Positions 22,055 to 46,118 of a DNA stretch of 64,000 bases are shown in pieces. Source of the DNA: Naegleria gruberi (Eukaryota); the NCBI GenBank assembly GCA_000004985.1, contig GG738869.1; one strand, 5' to 3'. A model generated the notes under the pieces. That model saw only the letters and a list, made by a program, of their open reading frames with translations. It had not been told where the DNA came from and searched no databases. The translations under genes and the position numbers were made by a program. Every line of letters starts with the position of its first letter. Position 1 is the first letter of the stretch.

Positions 22055-23647
22055 TTATTTAAATTGATCGATATTTCTAAAGCTATTCTTTTGAGGATTT
22101 TCCACCTTTTTCATCAACTTTAAATATTCAACTCTGAAAGAATCCAACATGTCAGATTTGGATTGGTTTGGGAAATTCAATGAATTCTTGAACGTTTCAT
22201 GGCAGTTGATCAATTTCTTTCCAATTTGAATTTGAGCTTCATCGAAAATATTTGTCAAATCACCTTCAGAGTCACCAATCGATATCTTAACTTGATATCT
22301 TTCAATTTCCTTCTTAATTTCTTCATGTTTCGAATACTTGACATGATTTCTGGCAAGTTCAGTATCCAAGAATTGATTATATATTTCCATTGCTTGTCTA
22401 TCTTCACTATCATTCAACTTGAACGAATTCAGTGACAATAAATCACTGGAAAATGTCAAAATCTCACTCTGTTCATCATCTTCCTGAGAAGGTGAATTAG
22501 CAGTGGAGCAATTGAGTAAACTGCTGTTGTTATTTCTCTCATTGGAAAAGTTTTTCATATCTTCCAGAATTGACTTGATAGTCGAATGTAATGATTTCTT
22601 ATGTTCCTTAAATATCTGAACTTGTTCAAGAAAGTGAAATCTATTCGAAAGTGAATCTCCCTTACAATATTCACCAAATAAGGGTCTCATAAATGGATCT
22701 GCAATTGTCTGAATGACCATAATTGCCTTGGCATGTTCCAATTTCTTAGCCGAATCATGTTCAACCTTAATAGCATGAATAAAAATCAAGACAACCAATG
22801 GAATTGCCACTGATAAACAAACTGCAATAACTGTCAAGTCAGTTGTCGTGGCAGTTTCCATCGCATTTAGCTGAATTACACTCAAATTCTTGATATCACC
22901 CACAAAATTCACATATGTATTTAGAAAAGTGTACATTCCATTGTAATGAGTTGGATTATAAAAGGCAGTCAATGCAGCTGAATAATTCTTCGCCACTACA
23001 TATTCCACAACCTGTTCCTGTAATTTAAAAAGAGGTATTTCATTCGCGTCACGTGTCAAATTTCCCAAACTAGCACTTGGCACCAATGAAAATAATCGAT
23101 TCATGGTCGAAATTAATGATTTCTTAGCAGCATAATATTCCAATGCATAACTTTCATTCCTTCCATACACTGCTATATACTCTGTCATGATCATTGTATT
23201 GTAATACTTGTAGGAATTCCCGTAATGTTGTAAAATTTCGACAAGTGGCCACTTTACAATATCATAGTTATAAATTGTTGTTATGAAAATGGCAAGAAAT
23301 GAAGCAATAATCAAGAACATTCCCAATATAGAGACAATTCTCATGCAATTGAAAGCAAAAGTTCCACAACATGATTTGACATTTACAATGGATTGAGATT
23401 TTGACGTGTTGGAGGTAGTCTTGGTTTTTGCAGAAGTTATGGAATATTTTCGTTTTAGGGTTTGAATTCTGGATTCTTGAGCGTTGATAACGGTAATGGT
23501 GCCATCATCAATTAGGACACTTTTCTTTCGAATAGGTTCATCACCTTGATTAGTTTCGGATAATGGAATGGGTGAAGTAATGGTTACACTGGTTGAGGTT
23601 GGAGAGTTGAGTCTTTCGCGAGGAGTTTCGTTGGGGAGAACTGGCAT
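22055..23647 (-). CDS. receptor-like RGS protein, type A (cytoplasmic N-terminus, TM1, about 170-aa N-glycosylated ectodomain, TM2, C-terminal RGS domain)
   Basis: 530-aa ORF with aaaaaaATG. The RGS core is IADPFMRPLFGEYCKGDSLSNRFHFLEQVQIFKEHKK...AMEIYNQFLD...FDEAQIQIGKKLI. It has two hydrophobic helices and many NxS/T sites between them. It is a paralog of 43295..44602. Confidence 0.7.
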   Translation of the reverse strand: MPVLPNETPRERLNSPTSTSVTITSPIPLSETNQGDEPIRKKSVLIDDGTITVINAQESRIQTLKRKYSITSAKTKTTSNTSKSQSIVNVKSCCGTFAFNCMRIVSILGMFLIIASFLAIFITTIYNYDIVKWPLVEILQHYGNSYKYYNTMIMTEYIAVYGRNESYALEYYAAKKSLISTMNRLFSLVPSASLGNLTRDANEIPLFKLQEQVVEYVVAKNYSAALTAFYNPTHYNGMYTFLNTYVNFVGDIKNLSVIQLNAMETATTTDLTVIAVCLSVAIPLVVLIFIHAIKVEHDSAKKLEHAKAIMVIQTIADPFMRPLFGEYCKGDSLSNRFHFLEQVQIFKEHKKSLHSTIKSILEDMKNFSNERNNNSSLLNCSTANSPSQEDDEQSEILTFSSDLLSLNSFKLNDSEDRQAMEIYNQFLDTELARNHVKYSKHEEIKKEIERYQVKISIGDSEGDLTNIFDEAQIQIGKKLINCHETFKNSLNFPNQSKSDMLDSFRVEYLKLMKKVENPQKNSFRNIDQFK

Positions 23648-23998
23648 TTTTTTAAGAGATTATTAATTAAGGAAGGGGACAGATGTTGAGTTTTTATTGG
23701 AAAGTAGACGAAAGATAAAATCTCTTGGAAGTACATCAATTCTCTTTGTACATTCCCCCAAGTGCATGATATGAATCATTACTTGCCTTTCGTATATTTC
23801 GGTAGAGATAGACGAAACGTAATAGGGATATTAGCTATCTCTCTCGAATATTAAAAAACAAGAGTTGTCATTGAACACTATCTGAGGTTTCCTTTTTCAT
23901 TACTATTGGAGATAAGCGCAATAAAAACAATCTCTAACAATCTTGAACTAAACCTACCGAAACGTCAACATCAATTAATTTTCAATAATTCAAAAAAA
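23648..23998. promoter_or_regulatory. divergent (head-to-head) intergenic region shared by RGS genes A1 and B1
   Basis: A 351-bp spacer lies between two divergently oriented start codons. It contains a direct repeat of TAGACGAAA (about 23708 and about 23806). Confidence 0.4.
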
Positions 23999-25714
23999 AT
24001 GAATTTAAATCAACATGAAATATTGGAAACCAGCATTAAGGAAGAGGTTTTTCAAAACACATCATCTAATAATCTAGTTTCGAATAATGAATCTTGGCAG
24101 GAGCAAGACCTTTCAATTGCACCAAACTTTCAACTTGGTGATACAAACGACATTCTCTCAAATACTCAACTTGATAATATTAGTAACATGGCAGACGATC
24201 TGGAAAGTCTAGAAATTCCTGAACTCGGCGACATGTCAAATGCCAGTCCCATGTTTACAAAAGTTCAACAAGAAGATGACATCAACGAAGAACCACTTGA
24301 AAACCACAATGAATCCCAACCAAACATTCGTAAAAGATACTCCCTAATCTCTCAATGGAACAAAAAGAAGGTTTCCCTTTGTTGCGGAGGAAAAATTGGA
24401 ATTGTCCCATGTTTATCCGTAATGGCAATTCTCCTCAGTATTTTAGCGCTCATTTCCATTGCCCTCCTCGTTGCCCTTCCATTCTATGAAATTAAAAAAA
24501 TACCAATTCTAGATTTAATGACAAGTCGTGCAAAATTATTTGCCTCATATATTGCCATGAGGGATATGTTAAGGTTGGGAGTTGAGAATAAGGGTAATTA
24601 TGATTCGTATTCGACCTATTATTACTATTATTACTATAAGAATAATTTTAATAATAGTTATACAAATTTTACGCATATTATTCCAACAAAGTTTAGTCAT
24701 GAATTTTTGACGAAACCTTTGGCAACTTATCCTATTTTTGTGAACTATTGGGATAAGATGGTAAAGAAGGTGGTTTCGTTTAGGGTGATAAATGGAACGA
24801 CCTATTACTCTCTCAATAAGACCATTCAAGCAGAGGCAAGAAGTCAACTTTACTCAGTTGACTATGCCACGACTTTCAATGATTTTCAAACCTCTTTCTA
24901 TGATTTACAGGACAAGCTATTCGAAATGTGCCATCATGCTGATATGCTGGTCAAGAATAGTGGAATTGCCACTTTATTTTTGGTCTGTTTCTCATTGGCA
25001 GTGATTCTTCCAACCATTCTAATAATTTTCATATTTGCATTGAGGAAAGATCGATCGAATGCAAAGAATCTTCACTCAGCCAATCGAAATATGTTGAAAG
25101 AAACCATGTCCAATCCGTCCATGAGAAGAGATTTTAGAAAGTTTTGTAAAGATTGTAAAATGGAAGGTCAATATTTGATTTTGGAAAAGATTCAATTTTA
25201 TAAGGAATTTTCATTGGAATCGTATGATGCACAAATGAATTTATTTGAATTGACTGGAGAGTATGTGAGGAAACAGAATATTAACATGAAGGAAAAGAAT
25301 TCGAGGTTGGTTTATAAGGTGGCTAAAGAGGCCGAGAAGAAATTAGTTTATTTTGAAAGGATGAAATACGAAACTATATTTGAGATTGTTGAAAATTTTC
25401 ATGAGGTGAATCAATGTTCGCACTTTTCAGCACTCTTTCAAGAAGTGAGAACAGTGTTGGATTTGTACAATAACAAGAATGATATCTTTGAGGATACAGA
25501 TCTACTGCCTTCGAAACTATTCGATAATTTAGAAAAGGAATTGAGTACAGCTCTTGCTAGAACTCATTTGCAATTCAAATCAACGAGTGGACTAAATGCT
25601 AGCAAAGCAATGTCATGCAATTCACCATCATCTCCAATTATTGTTGAGAAAACGAAGCCACTATTGGATCAATCAGTAATCTCTACTACAGAAGATCTTT
25701 CCATTCAAGTGTAA
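23999..25714 (+). CDS. receptor-like RGS protein, type B (two TM helices flanking an ectodomain, C-terminal RGS domain)
   Basis: The ORF starts at 23906. ATG 23999 has the aaaaaaaATG context. The RGS core is MSNPSMRRDFRKFCKDCKMEGQYLILEKIQFYKEF...LFDNLEKEL. It is a paralog of 41631..43181. Confidence 0.65.
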   Translation: MNLNQHEILETSIKEEVFQNTSSNNLVSNNESWQEQDLSIAPNFQLGDTNDILSNTQLDNISNMADDLESLEIPELGDMSNASPMFTKVQQEDDINEEPLENHNESQPNIRKRYSLISQWNKKKVSLCCGGKIGIVPCLSVMAILLSILALISIALLVALPFYEIKKIPILDLMTSRAKLFASYIAMRDMLRLGVENKGNYDSYSTYYYYYYYKNNFNNSYTNFTHIIPTKFSHEFLTKPLATYPIFVNYWDKMVKKVVSFRVINGTTYYSLNKTIQAEARSQLYSVDYATTFNDFQTSFYDLQDKLFEMCHHADMLVKNSGIATLFLVCFSLAVILPTILIIFIFALRKDRSNAKNLHSANRNMLKETMSNPSMRRDFRKFCKDCKMEGQYLILEKIQFYKEFSLESYDAQMNLFELTGEYVRKQNINMKEKNSRLVYKVAKEAEKKLVYFERMKYETIFEIVENFHEVNQCSHFSALFQEVRTVLDLYNNKNDIFEDTDLLPSKLFDNLEKELSTALARTHLQFKSTSGLNASKAMSCNSPSSPIIVEKTKPLLDQSVISTTEDLSIQV

Positions 25715-25779: not shown

Positions 25780-26667
25780 TTAAAGATTTCTTTGTCTATC
25801 AACTTGTCTGCATTGTAATTGCCAAACAGCTGGTTCAGCAGCACTACCATGAACGAATACAGGGCTCTTAGTTTCAACCAAAGAAACACCCCAACTAGTA
25901 ATTCTGCAATAACATTCACCCTTCAAAACTGGATAACCCTTACGAATACGATCAGCAATAACATAACCATCAATCATAACGAGAATATTGTAAATGAGAA
26001 CGAGAGGAATTAATGGAATACCAATAAAGAAGGCACACAATACGGCAAGAATGGTAGTCAAAACAACTGAAACAACGAGATAGATAGCACCCTTTGATTG
26101 TTGTCCAATGACAAAATGTCCCAAACCAGGGAAGACCAAATTACAGAGCAAAACAAGTGCTGGTTCAACTCCTTGAACCTTGACATAGGATTCATCAGTA
26201 ACTTGAACAGTAGTATTGGTTACAATAGGAGTAGTAGTTGGTTGAATGGTAGGTGGAAGAGTAGATGGAACATAGGTAGGTTGTTGTTGTGGAATATGAT
26301 TTACATTTGGGAGAGGAGGCAATTGAATTTGTGGTTGTCCAGATTGTTGTTGTTGTTGTTGCAATAACTGTTGTTGTTGTAAATATTGTTGATACATTTG
26401 TTGTTGTTGAAGAAACTGGGCATATTGACTTTGTGGAATGTAGGCAATTTGTTGTTGTCCATCTTGTCCCATAACCGGAACAGCATAGAAGGCTTGTTGT
26501 TGTTGTTGACCAGTAGTAGCAACATTTGGTTGTTGTTGTTGGTGAACAATTGGTTCTTGCTTTTGAGTAAAAGTTGGTTGTTGTTGTTGTGCTTCTTCTT
26601 GTTGAATTTGTTCACTGGTTGGAACGTATTCATCAGCTTCATCTTGAAGATTTTGATAACCGCTCAT
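25780..26667 (-). CDS. TM2-domain protein with long Q-rich N-terminal region
   Basis: The TM2-like motif is NLVFPGLGHFVIGQQSKGAIYL with flanking TM helices. The poly-Q is encoded by (CAA)n. The ORF starts at 26850, but ATG 26667 (MSGYQNLQDEADEY) has the oligo(A) context. Confidence 0.5.
   Translation of the reverse strand: MSGYQNLQDEADEYVPTSEQIQQEEAQQQQPTFTQKQEPIVHQQQQPNVATTGQQQQQAFYAVPVMGQDGQQQIAYIPQSQYAQFLQQQQMYQQYLQQQQLLQQQQQQSGQPQIQLPPLPNVNHIPQQQPTYVPSTLPPTIQPTTTPIVTNTTVQVTDESYVKVQGVEPALVLLCNLVFPGLGHFVIGQQSKGAIYLVVSVVLTTILAVLCAFFIGIPLIPLVLIYNILVMIDGYVIADRIRKGYPVLKGECYCRITSWGVSLVETKSPVFVHGSAAEPAVWQLQCRQVDRQRNL
26280..26600. repeat. imperfect (TTG/CAA)n trinucleotide tract encoding poly-Gln on the minus strand
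   Basis: There are runs of ttgttgttgttg. This explains the spurious plus-strand poly-Val/Leu ORFs at 26289..26694. Confidence 0.7.
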
Positions 26668-27024
26668 TTTTATTATTGTATGGAAGAGTTTTGAAATCCT
26701 TTGCGGGAAATGTTTTGTTTGTGCTTTTTTTTTTGATAGGGAAATTGATGAGAAAAGTAAAATTAGCTTCAAAAAGAGTTCTAATTGGAAAAATTTTAAA
26801 ATGGAAAGGAGTTTGGTTTGATTGATGTTGAATTCGAAGTTTCTTTTCACAGAGTATTTTCTAAGGTATTAAGTACTAAGAAGTGAATGCAATGAACCTA
26901 ATCATGTGATTCAAAAAACAATCTAAGATTTGTAAAAGTAACAACTTTCTCAAACAAATGTAAAAAATCTCATACCCTTCCAACAACCTTCCAATCACTT
27001 TCTTCAATTCTTCCACAAAAAAAA

Positions 27025-40411: not shown

Positions 40412-41452
40412 TTACAAAATGTTAGCTCTGTGTAAATTACACAACAATTGATTATAGTTGAAAAGAGGTCCATATTGCATATCATGCCAATAATTGACTG
40501 CAACCACAACACCTTCCTCATTGTGGTCCTGAGCCACTTGATGAAGCCATAAAGATGGAAGATATAAAGCATCTCCAGGTCCAATCTCCACTTTGAATGG
40601 AGTGGCATGCTTATATCTTGGGTAAACTTGAATGATTTCCTCTCTAGTTTGTTTATCTGGATCAACATCAATCCAAGGGACTTGCGTATCTTCATCTACA
40701 ATCTTCCATTCATTATCTTCAAAATGATAGTGAGCTTCATTATAATTCTTATAAGGCACATTTACAACATCTGTTGGAGGATAAAGTGTAAAGATTTTCT
40801 TTCCAGCCAATACACAATAAATATTCTCATATGGATCCTTATGTAAACTAGAAGTAGATTGACCATCTCCAATCCACAAATTAACAGCATCTGGTAAATT
40901 ATTAAAAGCTCTCACAGCAAATCCCAATTGTTCTGGAACATCTTGCATGAGTTCTTGAAATTCCTTTGTTAAACTTGAATTTTGATGTTGAGCATAGAAG
41001 ATAGTATTCCATGAATTCATTCCATTAAATTCCTCTTCCTCCTTATCTGGTAAATTATTAAATCTCCTCTTATTAGTCATAAATTGCATAAATTGATTAA
41101 ATTTCATTTTCACTTCCATAGGTTTAATAAATTTTCCTTCATGCACAGCATCAGCCTTTCCATTTGGTGTACAAGCCACAGAAATTTCCTTATCGGAAAG
41201 AACTTGTTTCAAATATTCAACATTCCACTTTTCAGAGGCTGGCCATCCTTCCAAAGCATTCCTAAATATCACTGGTTTATTAGCACTAATATAATGATGA
41301 ACAAAATTTAAAACATCATCCTCATCTTCATAAACTGGAAATCCGTAAAGTTCATCAACTTGTCCTTCCTCTCCGTAGGTTTCCTTGGTTTGTTCCGAGA
41401 GGAGGTCTAATTGTTCGTGGAGCAGGGTTTTCAGTGTGTCGTTTGCGCTCAT
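40412..41452 (-). CDS. JmjC-domain (cupin) 2OG/Fe(II) oxygenase, JMJD7-like
   Basis: 346 aa with aaaaaaaaaATG. The iron-binding motif is SSLHKDPYENIYCVLAGKKIFTLYPP (HxD) followed by ...LWLHQV. Confidence 0.6.
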   Translation of the reverse strand: MSANDTLKTLLHEQLDLLSEQTKETYGEEGQVDELYGFPVYEDEDDVLNFVHHYISANKPVIFRNALEGWPASEKWNVEYLKQVLSDKEISVACTPNGKADAVHEGKFIKPMEVKMKFNQFMQFMTNKRRFNNLPDKEEEEFNGMNSWNTIFYAQHQNSSLTKEFQELMQDVPEQLGFAVRAFNNLPDAVNLWIGDGQSTSSLHKDPYENIYCVLAGKKIFTLYPPTDVVNVPYKNYNEAHYHFEDNEWKIVDEDTQVPWIDVDPDKQTREEIIQVYPRYKHATPFKVEIGPGDALYLPSLWLHQVAQDHNEEGVVVAVNYWHDMQYGPLFNYNQLLCNLHRANIL

Positions 41453-41630: not shown

Positions 41631-43181
41631 TTAAATGAAAGGAAGATCACTTGTTGGAGATTGAGGAGAATTTGGAGAAGTAGTGTTCATATTCAAAGCA
41701 AGTGTTGATTTGAATTGAAAATGAGTTAGAGAAAGAATATCCGATATTTCCTTTTCGAGATTATCCAAAATTTTTGAATGGAGAATGTCCACAGTTTCGT
41801 ATGAGCCTTGTCTATTGTTATAGAGATCGATTTGGTGGATAATCCATTCCATACTACCAAGATAAACAGATTCTGATTGAATGGAATCATGAATTTCAAA
41901 AATGATTTCGTATTTGATTCGTTCTAGATGGGAAAGTTTCTTTTCAAGTTCATTCGAAACTTGCTGAATATAAATGTCTGCTCCTTTAGCCAAAGACTTT
42001 TCCGCTACAAACTCCTTTGTAATTTCATATAATTTGAGCTGACAATCTATTGAATCTTTACAAAATTCTTTAAAATATTGAATTCTTTCCAAAATTGAAA
42101 ATGGAATTCCAACCTTTGCCTTTTTACAAAATGTTTTAAATTCATCTCGCATTCCAATATCAGCCATCGTATCCTTCAATATATTAGTACTCTCAATCCT
42201 AACTTTCTTCTCATTTCGTATCAACTTTCGTCCCAACATTAAATAAACTAATATTCCAACAGGAATAACAATCACACAAGCCAGACACGACAAGACCAAC
42301 ACTGAAATTCCACTCGCTATGGTAAACTCATCAATTCTATTGCACAACAAGTAAATATCCTCCAATATCTCAAAAAACTTTGTTTCGAATAGTTCCATTT
42401 CATATTTAAATGTTCCATTATAATATTTGACATTGTAAACATTAAATTGTTGATAAAATTCATCCAATTTCGTATAATTTGAAGTATAATTACTCAGCTT
42501 ACAAAACAACCCAATCATTTCTGTCCAATTCTGATAAAGTGGCAGAAACACTTCCTCACCATTCGAATTTCCCATAAACGAATGTTCATAACTGTCAGGT
42601 ATTAAGGAAATCATTTTAAAAACCGATTGATTATAATCAAGCAGTGTATAATTAAGCATATCACAAAAATCTGAATAATTAATCGTTTCCAAACTATTAT
42701 TAAGAGCACTCAATTCTAACATGTCTCGTAAATAGACGAAAGAAGATTTAACTGAATATCGACTAATGAGTAGTTCCTTAATGGGAACAAATTCGGCTAT
42801 TCGTGATGGGACAATGATGGCGAGGGCAATGATGAGTAGAAACAAAATATTGATGAACATGGCCATGGTGGCAAGTAATGGAATTAATCCGAAACGTTTC
42901 GAACAACAATTGATTTGTTTTTTTGATAGTGAACGAGCCAAATCATCAACATGATTGGTTTCGTCCCGAATTTCCTCTATACCTGCTGGTAATTGATCTT
43001 CTATCCTTTCATCCTCAAATAGTATCCTCGGTTGACTTTCGAATACATTTTCATTCTCCACAAAAACACTTCCTTCATCATTTTCATAATTATTTGGTGA
43101 TTGAATTGAAGAATAACTTATTGCCCTCTTCAATTCAAAAGTAGACGGCTTGCTATATGATGGTGGATCATTTAAAAGCAT
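41631..43181 (-). CDS. receptor-like RGS protein, type B (paralog of 23999..25714)
   Basis: The ORF extends to 43301 via non-ATG codons. The first ATG with aaaaATG context is 43181 (MLLNDPPSYSK...). The RGS core is MADIGMRDEFKTFCKKAKVGIPFSILERIQYFKEF...ILDNLEKEI. It has two TM helices. Confidence 0.65.
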   Translation of the reverse strand: MLLNDPPSYSKPSTFELKRAISYSSIQSPNNYENDEGSVFVENENVFESQPRILFEDERIEDQLPAGIEEIRDETNHVDDLARSLSKKQINCCSKRFGLIPLLATMAMFINILFLLIIALAIIVPSRIAEFVPIKELLISRYSVKSSFVYLRDMLELSALNNSLETINYSDFCDMLNYTLLDYNQSVFKMISLIPDSYEHSFMGNSNGEEVFLPLYQNWTEMIGLFCKLSNYTSNYTKLDEFYQQFNVYNVKYYNGTFKYEMELFETKFFEILEDIYLLCNRIDEFTIASGISVLVLSCLACVIVIPVGILVYLMLGRKLIRNEKKVRIESTNILKDTMADIGMRDEFKTFCKKAKVGIPFSILERIQYFKEFCKDSIDCQLKLYEITKEFVAEKSLAKGADIYIQQVSNELEKKLSHLERIKYEIIFEIHDSIQSESVYLGSMEWIIHQIDLYNNRQGSYETVDILHSKILDNLEKEISDILSLTHFQFKSTLALNMNTTSPNSPQSPTSDLPFI

Positions 43182-43294
43182 TTTTATGATTCGTAAATAA
43201 GTTATTCGAAAGGAAAGAAGTAGAAATAGAGATAAAAACAACATAAAAAAAAGGCATTTCAGAGTACTTACGAGTAGTAACTTGAAACAAGAAA
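43182..43294. promoter_or_regulatory. short divergent intergenic region shared by RGS genes B2 and A2
   Basis: About 113 bp lie between divergent ATGs. It contains AAGTAGAAATAGAGATAAAAA, similar to a word in the 23648..23998 spacer. Confidence 0.35.
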
Positions 43295-44602
43295 ATGCCA
43301 ATCAATGAAATACGTAAAAACGTCAAGGCCAATCAAGAGACTACTTTCACAACCAAGTCTTCATCTCTTGATTCGAATATGCCAACTAGGCGAAAGATTG
43401 TAAAGTATTTGAGACTAATCTTGTTGATAGGATTCATTATCAACTTTTTATCTTTCATTTCAATTGCTATTATTTCAATATTATCTTTTCAAAGTTCTAA
43501 TTTTTCATTATCAACTGCCATATACAAATATGGAAATGCATATTTGGGTTATGATGAAATGGAATTGGCAGAATTTTTAGTATTACTGACAAGAAAGGAG
43601 AAATTCATTCAAAGATATTATCATTCAAAGAATGAATTGAATAGTTCACTTTCGTATGCTTTTCAAATAATTTCGAATGAAAATTCTTCTTGGATTCCAA
43701 CTCACGAATGGTTCCAAATTGAAAATCACGTAATGGAACTAGTCAAGAGTGGAAACTATTCTCAAGCTTACTCAGTTTCAACTTCTCCAGAACACAAACT
43801 AGCAGATCTTCGATTTATCCAATTTTTAGATTCAGTTCTCGCTCAATTATTCCAAATCAGTGAAACAAAAGAAGCAGAATATATGAAATACACAACTATT
43901 GATCTGGTTGTGGTGATTCTCTGTTTAGGAATTGCCATTCCAATTGTTTTATTAATTTTCATTGGAGTTATTAAATTGGATCGAGATTCAAAGAAGAGAT
44001 TGGAGAAGGCAAGGGCAGTTTCGGTTATTCATTCGATTTCTGATCCGTTTCTGAGACCCAAGTTTAGAAAATGTGTTGAGAATGATGAGTTGGTGTGTTT
44101 TGAATTCTTGGAGAATGTTCAATTGTTTAAGGAGAAGAAGAGATCTATTCATTCGACTATTCAGTCGATTCTAGACGAAATGAAAAAAGAAATGATACCT
44201 AATGATGAAGAGGATGATGCTAGTTCATTGAATGGAATTAGCCCACTAACCCTTTCTCCTGATTTATTCTTACAAATCAAGTCAGAAGATGATCAAATTA
44301 AGGCAATTGACATTTACAATCGTTTTCTCAATCCTAAAGAAAATCAGAAACACATCAAATATAAGAATCATGAAAAGATTTTGGAGGAAATTAATCATCA
44401 GAGTAATCAAGACCTGTTGTCCACTGTATTCGATCAGGTACAAATTGAAATTGCTAAAAAGCTCATCAAATCTCATGAATTATTCTCCAAATCTCAATCT
44501 TTCTCCACTCAAGACATTGAAGACCAATTGCTTTCCTATAGATTTGAATATCTTTCAATATTCAAACCTGAAAAACGAAACAGTCTATTCACATCAAAGT
44601 AA
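43295..44602 (+). CDS. receptor-like RGS protein, type A (paralog of 22055..23647)
   Basis: 435 aa. The RGS core is ISDPFLRPKFRKCVENDELVCFEFLENVQLFKEKK...AIDIYNRFLN...FDQVQIEIAKKLI. It has two TM helices flanking an ectodomain with NxS/T sites. Confidence 0.7.
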   Translation: MPINEIRKNVKANQETTFTTKSSSLDSNMPTRRKIVKYLRLILLIGFIINFLSFISIAIISILSFQSSNFSLSTAIYKYGNAYLGYDEMELAEFLVLLTRKEKFIQRYYHSKNELNSSLSYAFQIISNENSSWIPTHEWFQIENHVMELVKSGNYSQAYSVSTSPEHKLADLRFIQFLDSVLAQLFQISETKEAEYMKYTTIDLVVVILCLGIAIPIVLLIFIGVIKLDRDSKKRLEKARAVSVIHSISDPFLRPKFRKCVENDELVCFEFLENVQLFKEKKRSIHSTIQSILDEMKKEMIPNDEEDDASSLNGISPLTLSPDLFLQIKSEDDQIKAIDIYNRFLNPKENQKHIKYKNHEKILEEINHQSNQDLLSTVFDQVQIEIAKKLIKSHELFSKSQSFSTQDIEDQLLSYRFEYLSIFKPEKRNSLFTSK

Positions 44603-44705: not shown

Positions 44706-46118
44706 CTAATTACCAGTTGGTTGAGGTTCAAAAGGTAATTGACTCAATCTGTCCTTTAATTCCTCATTCTTCAAATTTGAGTATTTTGTGTTTGATCTTT
44801 TTCTTTTGATTAAGACTGCCAACACTACAATTCCAATTAACAATGCCACACAACCAACGATAGCAAGAATTGATGAAATGATGATAATCAATGTTGTGGT
44901 TGACATTGGTGAAGAATTGTTTTGATTTCCGTTAGTATTGCTGTTCATGATATATGATTTTTGAGGAGTAGGTCCAACATTCACACATTCTGTGAAATAT
45001 TTGTTATTTGTTTGACCTTGAGGACATGGTTGACAAGATGCTCCATTAATTATATAGTTATCATCGCAATATGGAGAGAGTACATTAATAACAGAGTTCT
45101 TATTCGAAACATATATTACTCCAAGATAACACTTCAAGTATGCTTCATTTTCATAGGTGTAAATGGTGTCAATGATACCATTAGTTACCTTTCTAATTCT
45201 CTTATTGAGAGAATCGTTGAAAATAATTGAACCTTGTGAAGCACATATTTGAGATGGATTATGAATTCTTGCTAATTTAGCTGAACCCTTATCACCGGTA
45301 AAACAATCAGAACATGGATCAAGATCAGGAAATGGTCTTCTATATTGTACACCGACTGGAGTTGAGAGAATGTTGTTTTTCATGTCCACCTTTCGGATAA
45401 GATTATTTCTCGTATCTGAAATGAAAATGTTACCCTCCTCATCCATTGCAATACCAGTAGGGTAGTACAATGGAATTGACCGAGGAGGACCATCAGTACC
45501 AATGAAATTATCTGTTCTTGGTATCACGCCTGCAATTGTTGAAATAGTTGTATGAATCGTCACCCTTCTGATAACATAATCAAATGACTGAGCAACGTAC
45601 AGATACGTTCCTGTGGGATCAATAATCAATCCAGATGGGGTGTTAATGTAAACATCTGTTGCAAACCCTCCCTCACCCAAGTTTGGATCGGAAGTTGTTG
45701 CTGCCTTTCCTGCAGTAATTACTATTCGATTTGAATTGAGATATAAAGATCTAACTAAATTATACTTTTCGTCTGTAAAATGAATGGTATCACCGTGGTA
45801 AACCATTTCTTTCACAGATGGCAAGTATGCAGCATTGGCTTGTTCATAAGATGATGACGGAAAGTAATTTTGTGGTGGTTGACCTGTCTGACCAGCTACA
45901 ACATTCAATTGACCATTAGAATACTTATTAATAGTGGCTCCATTGAAATAGAAAAACTCAGCCTTGGATTTGAATGTGAATGCTTGTGCTTTGATGTTAT
46001 CAACAAACTTGTCTGCTTTGAATTTGATTGGAATTTGGGAGTTAACATGTAACCACATGTGTTGATGGACACACAAAAACACCAACACTGTAACTTGAAG
46101 AAGAACAGGCAATTGCAT
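44706..46118 (-). CDS. type-I membrane protein with NHL (six-bladed beta-propeller) repeats
   Basis: The signal peptide is MQLPVLLQVTVLVFLCV. The repeated blades include GIAMDEEGNIFISDTRNNLIRKV. The C-terminal TM helix is LIIIISSILAIVGCVALLIGIVVLAVLI, followed by a short basic tail. Confidence 0.6.
   Translation of the reverse strand: MQLPVLLQVTVLVFLCVHQHMWLHVNSQIPIKFKADKFVDNIKAQAFTFKSKAEFFYFNGATINKYSNGQLNVVAGQTGQPPQNYFPSSSYEQANAAYLPSVKEMVYHGDTIHFTDEKYNLVRSLYLNSNRIVITAGKAATTSDPNLGEGGFATDVYINTPSGLIIDPTGTYLYVAQSFDYVIRRVTIHTTISTIAGVIPRTDNFIGTDGPPRSIPLYYPTGIAMDEEGNIFISDTRNNLIRKVDMKNNILSTPVGVQYRRPFPDLDPCSDCFTGDKGSAKLARIHNPSQICASQGSIIFNDSLNKRIRKVTNGIIDTIYTYENEAYLKCYLGVIYVSNKNSVINVLSPYCDDNYIINGASCQPCPQGQTNNKYFTECVNVGPTPQKSYIMNSNTNGNQNNSSPMSTTTLIIIISSILAIVGCVALLIGIVVLAVLIKRKRSNTKYSNLKNEELKDRLSQLPFEPQPTGN

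What the first reader, a model, noticed from the sequence alone, without database searches (positions are those of the whole stretch)
22055..23647. Unusual RGS architecture: two-TM, glycosylated ectodomain, then RGS
All four proteins share one layout. It runs cytoplasmic N-terminus, TM helix, an ectodomain of about 170 aa rich in NxS/T and conserved Tyr/Cys, a second TM helix, and then a cytoplasmic RGS domain (F..FL...E...L.F....E.FK; A..IY..FL; F..AQ..I..K). Known membrane RGS proteins are 7TM-RGS (plant RGS1) or are lipid-anchored or single-pass. A 2-TM sensor-loop RGS would couple an extracellular ligand directly to G-alpha GTPase acceleration.
Basis: partly seen in the sequence, partly recalled or inferred. 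Interest (0 to 1): 0.55.

Follow-up and report, generated by a model that had tools for sequence, protein, structure and literature searches.

The report
Two-pass sensor-loop RGS proteins, Naegleria

Summary
The window is Naegleria gruberi. ORF 22055-23647(-) is EFC44267/D2VFX8, which UniProt already names "RGS domain-containing protein". The layout is real in all four paralogs: disordered N-terminus, a juxtamembrane CC motif, TM1, a 144-169 aa loop, TM2, then an RGS-fold domain.

- **Topology:** charge distribution and loop-specific NxS/T enrichment put the loop outside and the RGS domain in the cytoplasm.
- **Loop:** it is a confident four-helix bundle whose best structural matches are bacterial chemoreceptor and histidine-kinase sensor domains. 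This is fold resemblance only.
- **Family:** about 80 sequence clusters, found only in Naegleria and Willaertia among the members whose source was looked up.
- **Gα contacts:** about 35 of 62 members keep the RGS4 contact residues (E87, N88, N128, R167). The four window proteins keep none, so their GAP activity is doubtful.
- **Pairing:** they belong to two divergent clades (T1, T2) that sit next to each other in 6 of 6 loci examined.

TM-anchored RGS proteins were already surveyed, so I file this as a new variant of a known kind.

The parts
22055..23647 (-). Gene A (type 1), 530 aa, = N. gruberi EFC44267/D2VFX8. This is the ORF named in the finding.
23396..23647 (-). A, aa 1-84: disordered, Ser/Thr-rich cytoplasmic N-terminus
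   Evidence: pLDDT < 50
23351..23386 (-). A, aa 88-99: juxtamembrane CC(G) motif, predicted beta-hairpin. The family consensus is TCCGxxEL. It is a likely S-acylation site on the cytoplasmic face (inference).
23282..23338 (-). A, aa 104-122: TM1
   Evidence: Kyte-Doolittle mean 2.87; helical in the model
22835..23281 (-). A, aa 123-271: extracytoplasmic four-helix-bundle domain (helices 135-162, 165-188, 205-229, 232-271), with 4 NxS/T sequons. Conserved positions are Y171, P190, G220, A225, S231 and Y234.
22778..22834 (-). A, aa 272-290: TM2, with Pro283 invariant in 52 of 52 aligned members. It is part of one continuous helix spanning 232-316.
22178..22756 (-). A, aa ~298-490: RGS-fold domain. 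Its first helix continues directly from TM2. There is a 50-60 aa insertion between RGS helices 4 and 5 (aa ~350-400, partly disordered). The canonical G-alpha contact residues are replaced (L/N/R/H/T at RGS4 positions 85/87/88/128/167).
23648..23998 (.). 351-bp shared 5' intergenic region of the head-to-head pair A/C
23999..25714 (+). Gene C (type 2), 571 aa, = EFC44158/D2VFX9. TM1 is aa 141-159 (24419-24475) and TM2 is aa 327-345 (24977-25033). The RGS-like domain is degenerate.
41631..43181 (-). Gene D (type 2), 516 aa counted from the ATG at 43181 (the open frame runs on to 43244). Two TM helices, with a loop of about 169 aa carrying 8 sequons.
   Evidence: (P0007)
43182..43294 (.). 113-bp shared 5' intergenic region of the head-to-head pair D/B
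43295..44602 (+). Gene B (type 1), 435 aa, = EFC44166/D2VFZ1. It is 36% identical to A.

Best explanation
**What the family is**

The four ORFs belong to a family seen here only in Naegleria and Willaertia. It comprises about 80 clusters at 50% identity. The proteins are receptor-like and cross the membrane twice. In order, the parts are:
1. A disordered cytoplasmic N-terminus.
2. A juxtamembrane CC motif, probably S-acylated.
3. TM1.
4. A glycosylatable extracytoplasmic four-helix bundle with the same TM1-bundle-TM2 topology as bacterial chemoreceptor and histidine-kinase sensor domains.
5. TM2, with an invariant Pro.
6. A helix that runs on without a break into the first helix of a cytoplasmic RGS-fold domain.

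**How the canonical members probably work (inference)**

In the canonical majority, the RGS domain keeps the G-alpha contact residues. It most likely works as a membrane-fixed GAP. Its access to, or orientation toward, lipid-anchored G-alpha-GTP would be set by the conformation of the outer bundle, transmitted through TM2. This is a 'receptor-GAP' logic like that of the 7TM-RGS proteins, which regulate Naegleria's self-activating G-alpha subunits.

**How the four window proteins differ**
- They fall into two divergent clades: T1 (A and B) and T2 (C and D).
- Both clades have lost the canonical G-alpha contacts while keeping the RGS fold core.
- T1 and T2 genes are kept next to each other.
- I therefore think they act together, plausibly as a T1/T2 hetero-oligomer, since four-helix-bundle sensors are normally dimers.
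- Their RGS-homology domains would then serve a non-canonical role: scaffold, altered G-alpha interface, or regulator of canonical paralogs. A standard GAP role is less likely.

**Shown versus inferred**
- Shown: architecture, topology indicators, both folds, loss of contact residues, and gene adjacency.
- Inferred: ligand sensing, glycosylation, acylation, TM2 coupling, loss of GAP activity, and heteromer formation.
For: - **Identity and paralogs:**
- **Two TM helices in 68 of 82 members, median loop 152 aa:**
- **Topology:** positive-inside counts of 114/62/69/264, and a loop-only sequon excess (2.50 vs 1.41 expected per 100 aa).
- **RGS homology through the family:** 47 of 82 members, best E = 7.8e-12. 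P0016 and P0017 score 35 bits over profile positions 5-116 of 117.
- **Contact residues:** about 35 of 62 members keep all of E87/N88/N128/R167. The four window proteins and every T1/T2 relative score 0-1 of 4.
- **T1 has its own conserved motif:** (F/Y)L(N/D)P....H(V/I)K.K.H in place of the N128 loop. This argues for retargeting rather than decay.
- **Purifying selection on A:** 12 synonymous versus 6 non-synonymous differences from a 99%-identical strain variant, with most changes in disordered parts.
- **Clades:** A and B are sisters in T1; C and D fall in T2.
- **T1-T2 adjacency in 6 of 6 loci with flanking DNA:** two in the window, metagenome contigs L002 and L004, N. fowleri L003 and N. 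lovaniensis L005. A probable third N. gruberi pair is D2VLF5/D2VLF7, on one scaffold.
- **Controls:** two canonical members are solitary within +-8 kb.
- **Biological context:** Naegleria has self-activating G-alpha subunits regulated by membrane RGS proteins (PMC9283941).
Against: - **No biochemical data.** There is none for any member.
- **Weak sequence support for the RGS call.** For the four window proteins themselves it is sub-threshold or absent. A profile of the four finds no RGS structure in the PDB. The 82-member profile reaches RGS10 and RGS7 only at E = 0.02-0.09.
- **Residue mapping rests on a sequence alignment.** It was made with MAFFT against RGS4 alone. In T1 an Asn lies one residue away from the N88 column and could substitute for it if a one-residue insertion is allowed. 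Some functional RGS domains also tolerate changes at these sites.
- **No sequence link to bacterial sensor families.** The only hint is one weak hit of a single member to 4HB_MCP_1 (E = 0.034). The ectodomain profile finds nothing in the PDB.
- **Adjacency may be inherited, not selected.** T1-T2 adjacency could be the remnant of one old tandem duplication followed by segmental copying. The orientation differs between loci (head-to-head versus tail-to-tail). Only two canonical loci served as controls.
- **Location is unknown.** The membrane could be internal, so the loop could be lumenal rather than extracellular.
Confidence: 0.6

Rival explanations
1. First reader's model. All four are active receptor-GAPs: a ligand binds the glycosylated loop and directly tunes RGS-catalysed GTP hydrolysis on G-alpha.
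For: - The architecture and topology are right.
- The RGS fold is predicted with high confidence.
- Canonical paralogs of the same family keep every contact residue.
- Naegleria uses membrane RGS proteins as GAPs for its G-alpha subunits (PMC9283941).
- T1 keeps an Asn near the N88 position and a conserved His at the N128 position.
Against: - E87, N88, N128 and R167 equivalents are all substituted in A-D. They are variable across T2, which is the pattern of a released constraint.
- The Pfam RGS model fails on all four.
Confidence: 0.2
2. The protein is a membrane anchor, not a sensor. The four-helix loop would be a structural or glycosylated spacer, or an oligomerisation module. The proteins would be constitutively membrane-tethered RGS-homology scaffolds, possibly on internal membranes, comparable to the two-TM SNX13/14/25 proteins.
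For: - No ligand-binding family is detectable by sequence.
- Generic helical bundles score nearly as well as sensor domains.
- Sequon enrichment fits a lumenal loop as well as an extracellular one.
Against: - The loop is the most variable part of the family, while its fold is retained. This is the pattern typical of diversifying sensor domains.
- The TM1-bundle-TM2 topology with a continuous TM2-to-output helix is the hallmark of transmembrane signalling modules.
- There are no PXA or PX domains.
- Pro283 in TM2 is invariant, which suggests a conserved mechanical role.
Confidence: 0.15
3. The four genes are decaying, functionless duplicates within the very large N. gruberi RGS expansion (229 genes).
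For: - The functional residues are lost.
- The RGS repertoire is huge and redundant (PMC3971589).
Against: - All four are intact ORFs of 435-571 aa that match the annotated proteins.
- T1/T2 pairs are also found in N. fowleri, N. lovaniensis and environmental relatives.
- The fold core is conserved.
- The synonymous-to-non-synonymous ratio is 12:6 in A.
- T1 has its own conserved motif.
Confidence: 0.05

Closest known systems
7TM-RGS receptor-GAPs (Arabidopsis AtRGS1; the 28 N. fowleri 7TM-RGS proteins of Bosch et al. 2022, PMC9283941)
   Same: Both are integral membrane proteins with a C-terminal cytoplasmic RGS domain and an extracellular-facing part. Both follow the logic of a receptor that controls G-alpha deactivation rather than activation, and both occur in the same organism group.
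   Different: This family has two TM helices rather than seven. The sensor is a loop between the TM helices, not an N-terminal ectodomain or a 7TM pocket. The RGS domain starts directly on the TM2 helix. The four window members lack the G-alpha contact residues.
Bacterial four-helix-bundle sensor modules (Tar/Tsr ligand-binding domains, Pfam 4HB_MCP_1/TarH; HK9, NarQ, TorS and QseE sensors)
   Different: The host is a eukaryote and the output is an RGS domain rather than HAMP plus a kinase-control or kinase module. No significant sequence similarity was found, so homology is unproven. The loop carries N-glycosylation sequons.
SNX-RGS proteins (SNX13/14/25)
   Different: The SNX proteins have a short TM hairpin without a folded loop domain, and they carry PXA, PX and C-nexin domains. 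None of these is present here.
RGS-homology domains without GAP function (axin, GRKs, RhoGEF rgRGS)
   Different: Those are soluble, multidomain proteins with known alternative partners. No alternative partner is known here.

Membership tests
RGS domain (Pfam PF00615) | HMM score at or above the gathering threshold (23.9 bits) | tested here: not met
   A scores 22.7 bits, E = 1.4e-4, with only profile positions 6-73 matched. B, C and D give no hit at E <= 10.
RGS domain (Pfam PF00615) | Homology to bona fide RGS domains through intermediate sequences | tested here: met
   The four retrieve about 80 full-length relatives. 47 of 82 hit RGS at E <= 0.01, best 7.8e-12. P0016 and P0017 score 35 bits over profile positions 5-116 of 117.
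RGS domain (Pfam PF00615) | All-helical RGS fold | tested here: met
RGS domain acting as a G-alpha GAP (R4-like 'A-site') | Conserved G-alpha switch-contact residues (RGS4 S85, E87, N88, N128, R167) | tested here: not met
   A has L/N/R/H/T, B has E/V/C/H/L, C has M/G/Q/gap/Q and D has V/I/P/gap/Q. About 35 of 62 relatives keep all four of E87/N88/N128/R167. Caveat: this is a sequence alignment, and T1 has an Asn one position away from N88.
RGS domain acting as a G-alpha GAP | Acceleration of G-alpha GTP hydrolysis | not testable with these tools
   Needs single-turnover GTPase assays.
7TM-RGS (AtRGS1-like) | Seven transmembrane helices N-terminal to the RGS domain | tested here: not met
   There are exactly two hydrophobic segments in each of the four proteins and in 68 of 82 relatives.
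SNX-RGS (SNX13/14/25) | PXA and PX domains flanking the RGS domain | tested here: not met
   No PXA or PX hit in any of the 82 members.
Bacterial 4HB_MCP/TarH sensor domain | Up-down four-helix bundle inserted between TM1 and TM2 | tested here: met
Bacterial 4HB_MCP/TarH sensor domain | Significant sequence match to PF12729, PF02203 or solved sensor domains | tested here: not met
   There is only one weak hit, of the P0016 ectodomain to 4HB_MCP_1 (E = 0.034, 14.2 bits against a threshold of 27). The ectodomain profile finds nothing in the PDB.
Bacterial 4HB_MCP/TarH sensor domain | Dimeric ligand binding with TM2 displacement | not testable with these tools
   No multimer prediction or ligand data were available.

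The most novel reading that the evidence does not exclude
T1 and T2 proteins form an obligate heterodimeric, chemoreceptor-like receptor. A bacterial-style four-helix-bundle and TM2 signalling mechanism would drive a pair of pseudo-RGS domains. Those domains would no longer deactivate G-alpha. They would instead hold it or present it, or regulate the canonical 2TM-RGS paralogs. This would be a new class of eukaryotic receptor, one that couples prokaryote-type transmembrane signalling to heterotrimeric G proteins and is encoded by a conserved gene pair.
Probability: 0.15. Interest if true: 0.75.

Novelty: new variant of a known kind. Interest (0 to 1): 0.45.

Why it matters
Some Naegleria G-alpha subunits activate themselves, so signalling is controlled at the GTP-hydrolysis step by membrane RGS proteins (PMC9283941). 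Only the 7TM-RGS class has been studied so far.

A second, sizeable class would show that 'receptor-GAP' signalling was built more than once from different sensor hardware. In this class a chemoreceptor-like four-helix sensor loop is joined rigidly to an RGS domain through TM2. It would also give a compact, two-helix system for asking how an extracellular signal is passed to an RGS domain.

The degenerate, pair-encoded T1/T2 subfamilies suggest pseudo-enzyme partners within that system. The family is also present in the pathogen N. fowleri, so it adds surface-exposed candidates to its poorly understood sensory repertoire.

That said, TM-anchored RGS proteins and the huge Naegleria RGS expansion were already documented. 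Nothing about function has been shown here.

Tried and rejected
- **Word-indexed homolog searches.** The searches with protein A, with the four-protein alignment and with the 82-member alignment returned essentially only the query proteins. Low-complexity N-termini probably swamped the candidate lists. The exhaustive HMMER search was what revealed the family.
- **Profile of the four C-terminal domains against PDB sequences.** No RGS hit.
- **82-member profile against PDB sequences.** RGS10 and RGS7 appear only at E = 0.02-0.09.
- **hhalign of the family against a single RGS4 sequence.** Only a 29-column match, E = 0.009 and probability 4.6%. This was uninformative.
- **Ectodomain sequence searches.** Pfam at E <= 10 on 10 ectodomains and a 30-sequence ectodomain profile against the PDB gave no significant link to bacterial sensor families.
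- **Foldseek against AFDB50.** This was meant to look for the architecture outside Heterolobosea, but the library was unavailable.
- **Anantharaman et al. 2011** (Gene 475:63, PMC3396428). This is the main survey of RGS architectures and could not be read. It may already describe such proteins.
- **N. gruberi loci for P0008, P0019 and P0068.** They were not in the contig index.
- **Literature search** for Naegleria + RGS + 'two transmembrane' + extracellular found no paper.
- **Prokaryotic or viral origin of the window.** Rejected. The ORFs are exact N. gruberi proteins.
Full report
**1. What is at the coordinates**

The window is AT-rich (GC 0.30-0.37) and densely packed with long ORFs. ORF 22055-23647(-) encodes 530 aa. 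An exact-sequence look-up identifies it as Naegleria gruberi EFC44267/XP_002677011/UniProt D2VFX8, which UniProt already calls 'RGS domain-containing protein'.

BLAST of this protein against the window finds three paralogs:
- B, 43295-44602(+), 36% identity, E = 9e-67
- C, 23999-25714(+), E = 8e-12
- D, 41631-43244(-), E = 3e-8. The annotated product, P0007, starts at 43181.

B and C are exact N. gruberi proteins (D2VFZ1 and D2VFX9). They form two head-to-head pairs, A/C and D/B, with 351-bp and 113-bp shared upstream regions.

**2. Layout and topology**

Each protein has exactly two strongly hydrophobic 19-mers (Kyte-Doolittle means 2.7-3.4). They are separated by 144-169 aa.

An exhaustive HMMER search with the four-protein profile against 1.84 billion representatives found 83 proteins at E <= 1e-3, 76 of them at E <= 1e-10. 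Most match end to end. Among 82 family sequences, 68 have exactly two such segments, and the median loop is 152 aa. The rest are mostly fragments.

Lys+Arg counts in the 15-residue flanks are 114 before TM1, 62 after TM1, 69 before TM2 and 264 after TM2. By the positive-inside rule, both termini are cytoplasmic.

NxS/T sequons are enriched only in the loop:

| Region | Observed per 100 aa | Expected from composition |
|---|---|---|
| Loop | 2.50 | 1.41 |
| N-terminal part | 1.67 | 1.74 |
| C-terminal part | 0.91 | 0.91 |

This fits exposure of the loop to the secretory lumen or the cell exterior.

The loop is Tyr-rich (6.8%) but Cys-poor (0.41%). The conserved cysteines form a TCCGxxEL motif immediately before TM1 on the cytoplasmic side. 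I read this as a probable S-acylation site, which is an inference.

**3. Is the C-terminal domain an RGS domain?**

The wider evidence says yes:
- 47 of 82 relatives hit Pfam RGS at E <= 0.01, best 7.8e-12.
- P0016 and P0017 match the whole model at about 35 bits.
- The 82-member profile picks up RGS10 and RGS7 in two collinear pieces, but only weakly (E = 0.02-0.09).

The domain carries a 50-60 residue insertion between helices 4 and 5, which is partly disordered.

**4. Are they GAPs?**

I verified my RGS4 sequence against 1AGR chain E. I then aligned it with 62 family C-terminal domains.

About 35 of the 62 keep S85, E87, N88, N128 and R167. In these members the motifs read S-x-E-N-F and V-N-I. 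In the RGS4-Gi-alpha1 complex these residues contact the G-alpha switch regions (Tesmer et al. 1997, from my background knowledge).

The four window proteins keep none of them:

| Protein | Residues at RGS4 positions 85/87/88/128/167 |
|---|---|
| A | L/N/R/H/T |
| B | E/V/C/H/L |
| C | M/G/Q/gap/Q |
| D | V/I/P/gap/Q |

The same holds for all their close relatives.

- T2 is variable at these sites, which indicates released constraint.
- T1 has a clade-specific conserved motif, (F/Y)L(N/D)P....H(V/I)K.K.H, where the N128 loop should be.
- T1 also has an Asn one residue out of register with N88. This leaves room for an altered interface.

The fold core is conserved: F324, C328, L340, I422, F468, H483 and F486. 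A comparison with a 99%-identical strain variant gives 12 synonymous against 6 non-synonymous changes in A. These are therefore not pseudogenes.

**5. The loop**

Both models predict an all-helical bundle with high confidence (pLDDT 80-93 and 95-98).

- They recur with the second model.
- The topology also matches. TM1 leads into helix 1. Helix 4 (from residue 232) runs through TM2 (272-290) and on to residue 316 as one helix, and it merges into the first RGS helix.
- Pro283 in TM2 is invariant in 52 of 52 aligned members.
- No sequence link to 4HB_MCP, TarH or any solved sensor could be shown. The only hint is one E = 0.034 hit to 4HB_MCP_1.

I therefore describe the loop as 'works like and looks like a bacterial four-helix sensor module', not as a member of that family. 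Whether it binds a ligand is inferred from three things: the topology, the low sequence conservation of the loop, and a small conserved patch (Y171, P190, G220, A225, S231, Y234).

**6. Distribution and gene pairing**

Named members come only from N. gruberi, N. fowleri, N. lovaniensis and Willaertia magna. The rest come from metagenomes.

A neighbour-joining tree places A and B together in one clade (T1, with P0019, P0027 and P0067). C and D fall in another (T2, with P0008, P0011 and P0012). BLAST places two further proteins that are not in the tree: P0022 with T1 and P0009 with T2.

Wherever I could obtain flanking DNA, a T1 gene lies directly next to a T2 gene:
- both window pairs
- metagenome contigs L002 and L004 (head-to-head)
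- the syntenic N. fowleri (L003) and N. lovaniensis (L005) loci (tail-to-tail)

In N. gruberi, P0019 (D2VLF5) and P0013 (D2VLF7) share a scaffold, and their accessions are two apart.

Two canonical members (L006 and L007) have no family neighbour within 8 kb.

This suggests, but does not prove, that T1 and T2 function together. A heterodimer would fit the usual dimeric nature of four-helix sensors. The alternative is passive retention of an old tandem duplicate.

**7. Comparison with what is known**

- N. fowleri has 28 7TM-RGS proteins and 79 other RGS proteins. Some of its G-alpha subunits are self-activating and are deactivated by 7TM-RGS domains (PMC9283941).
- N. gruberi has 229 RGS proteins, and RGS fused to at least one TM helix is reported for most lineages (PMC3971589).
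- One member of this family is already annotated 'RGS and transmembrane domain-containing protein'.
- SNX13/14/25 are two-TM RGS proteins (my background knowledge).

A TM-anchored RGS protein is therefore not new. Three things I could not find described:
- the recognition of a defined two-TM family with a chemoreceptor-like four-helix loop and a direct TM2-to-RGS helix
- its split into canonical and degenerate members
- the conserved T1/T2 gene pairs

**8. Verdict**

The coordinates, the four paralogs, the two TM helices, the sequon-rich Tyr-rich loop and the RGS-like C-terminus all hold. It is wrong on conserved Cys, and the RGS HMM score is sub-threshold.
It overstates both the novelty and the GAP function for these particular genes.
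- I classify this as a new variant of a known kind (membrane receptor-RGS).
- Interest is moderate (0.45).

Noticed in passing
L007:11755-15624 (-), N. lovaniensis PYSW02000001.1: The gene next to the family member P0070 is a 1242-aa gene with OrfB_IS605 (weak) and Cas12f1-like TNB Pfam hits. It looks like a TnpB/Fanzor-like eukaryotic RNA-guided nuclease gene.
   Followed up: no
window:35336-36562 (+): A 408-aa ORF with two diaminopimelate epimerase domains (PF01678, E = 1.6e-33). This is a bacterial-type lysine-pathway enzyme in an amoeboflagellate genome, and its origin may be worth a look.
   Followed up: no
window:36881-39340 (+) and 40412-41452 (-): Between the two RGS gene pairs lie a PRMT5 arginine methyltransferase (three PRMT5 domains) and a cupin-8/JmjC-type protein (E = 3e-68). 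These are ordinary housekeeping neighbours, and they show that the two pairs are not a simple tandem array.
   Followed up: partly
window:25780-26850 (-): A 356-aa ORF with a long poly-Gln/Pro-rich N-terminal half and a hydrophobic C-terminal region. It has no Pfam hit and lies directly downstream of gene C.
   Followed up: no
L001 (ENA ERZ929261, metagenome contig k127_139772): An environmental metagenome contig carries the A/C gene pair at 97-99% protein identity to the N. gruberi reference. This indicates that a close N. gruberi strain is present in that sample.
   Followed up: partly
window:27025-29130 (+) and 44706-46118 (-): An LRR_6-rich 701-aa protein lies downstream of gene C, separated from it by the ORF at 25780-26850, and an NHL-repeat 470-aa protein lies immediately downstream of gene B. 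These are possible extracellular or interaction modules near the receptor-like genes. There is no evidence of a functional link.
   Followed up: no
P0043 (Willaertia magna KAL9656166, 1302 aa) and P0070 (N. lovaniensis, 1144 aa): Some family members are much longer than the 2TM-4HB-RGS core, with roughly 650-880 extra residues that have no Pfam match. They could be gene-model fusions or carry additional unknown domains.
   Followed up: no
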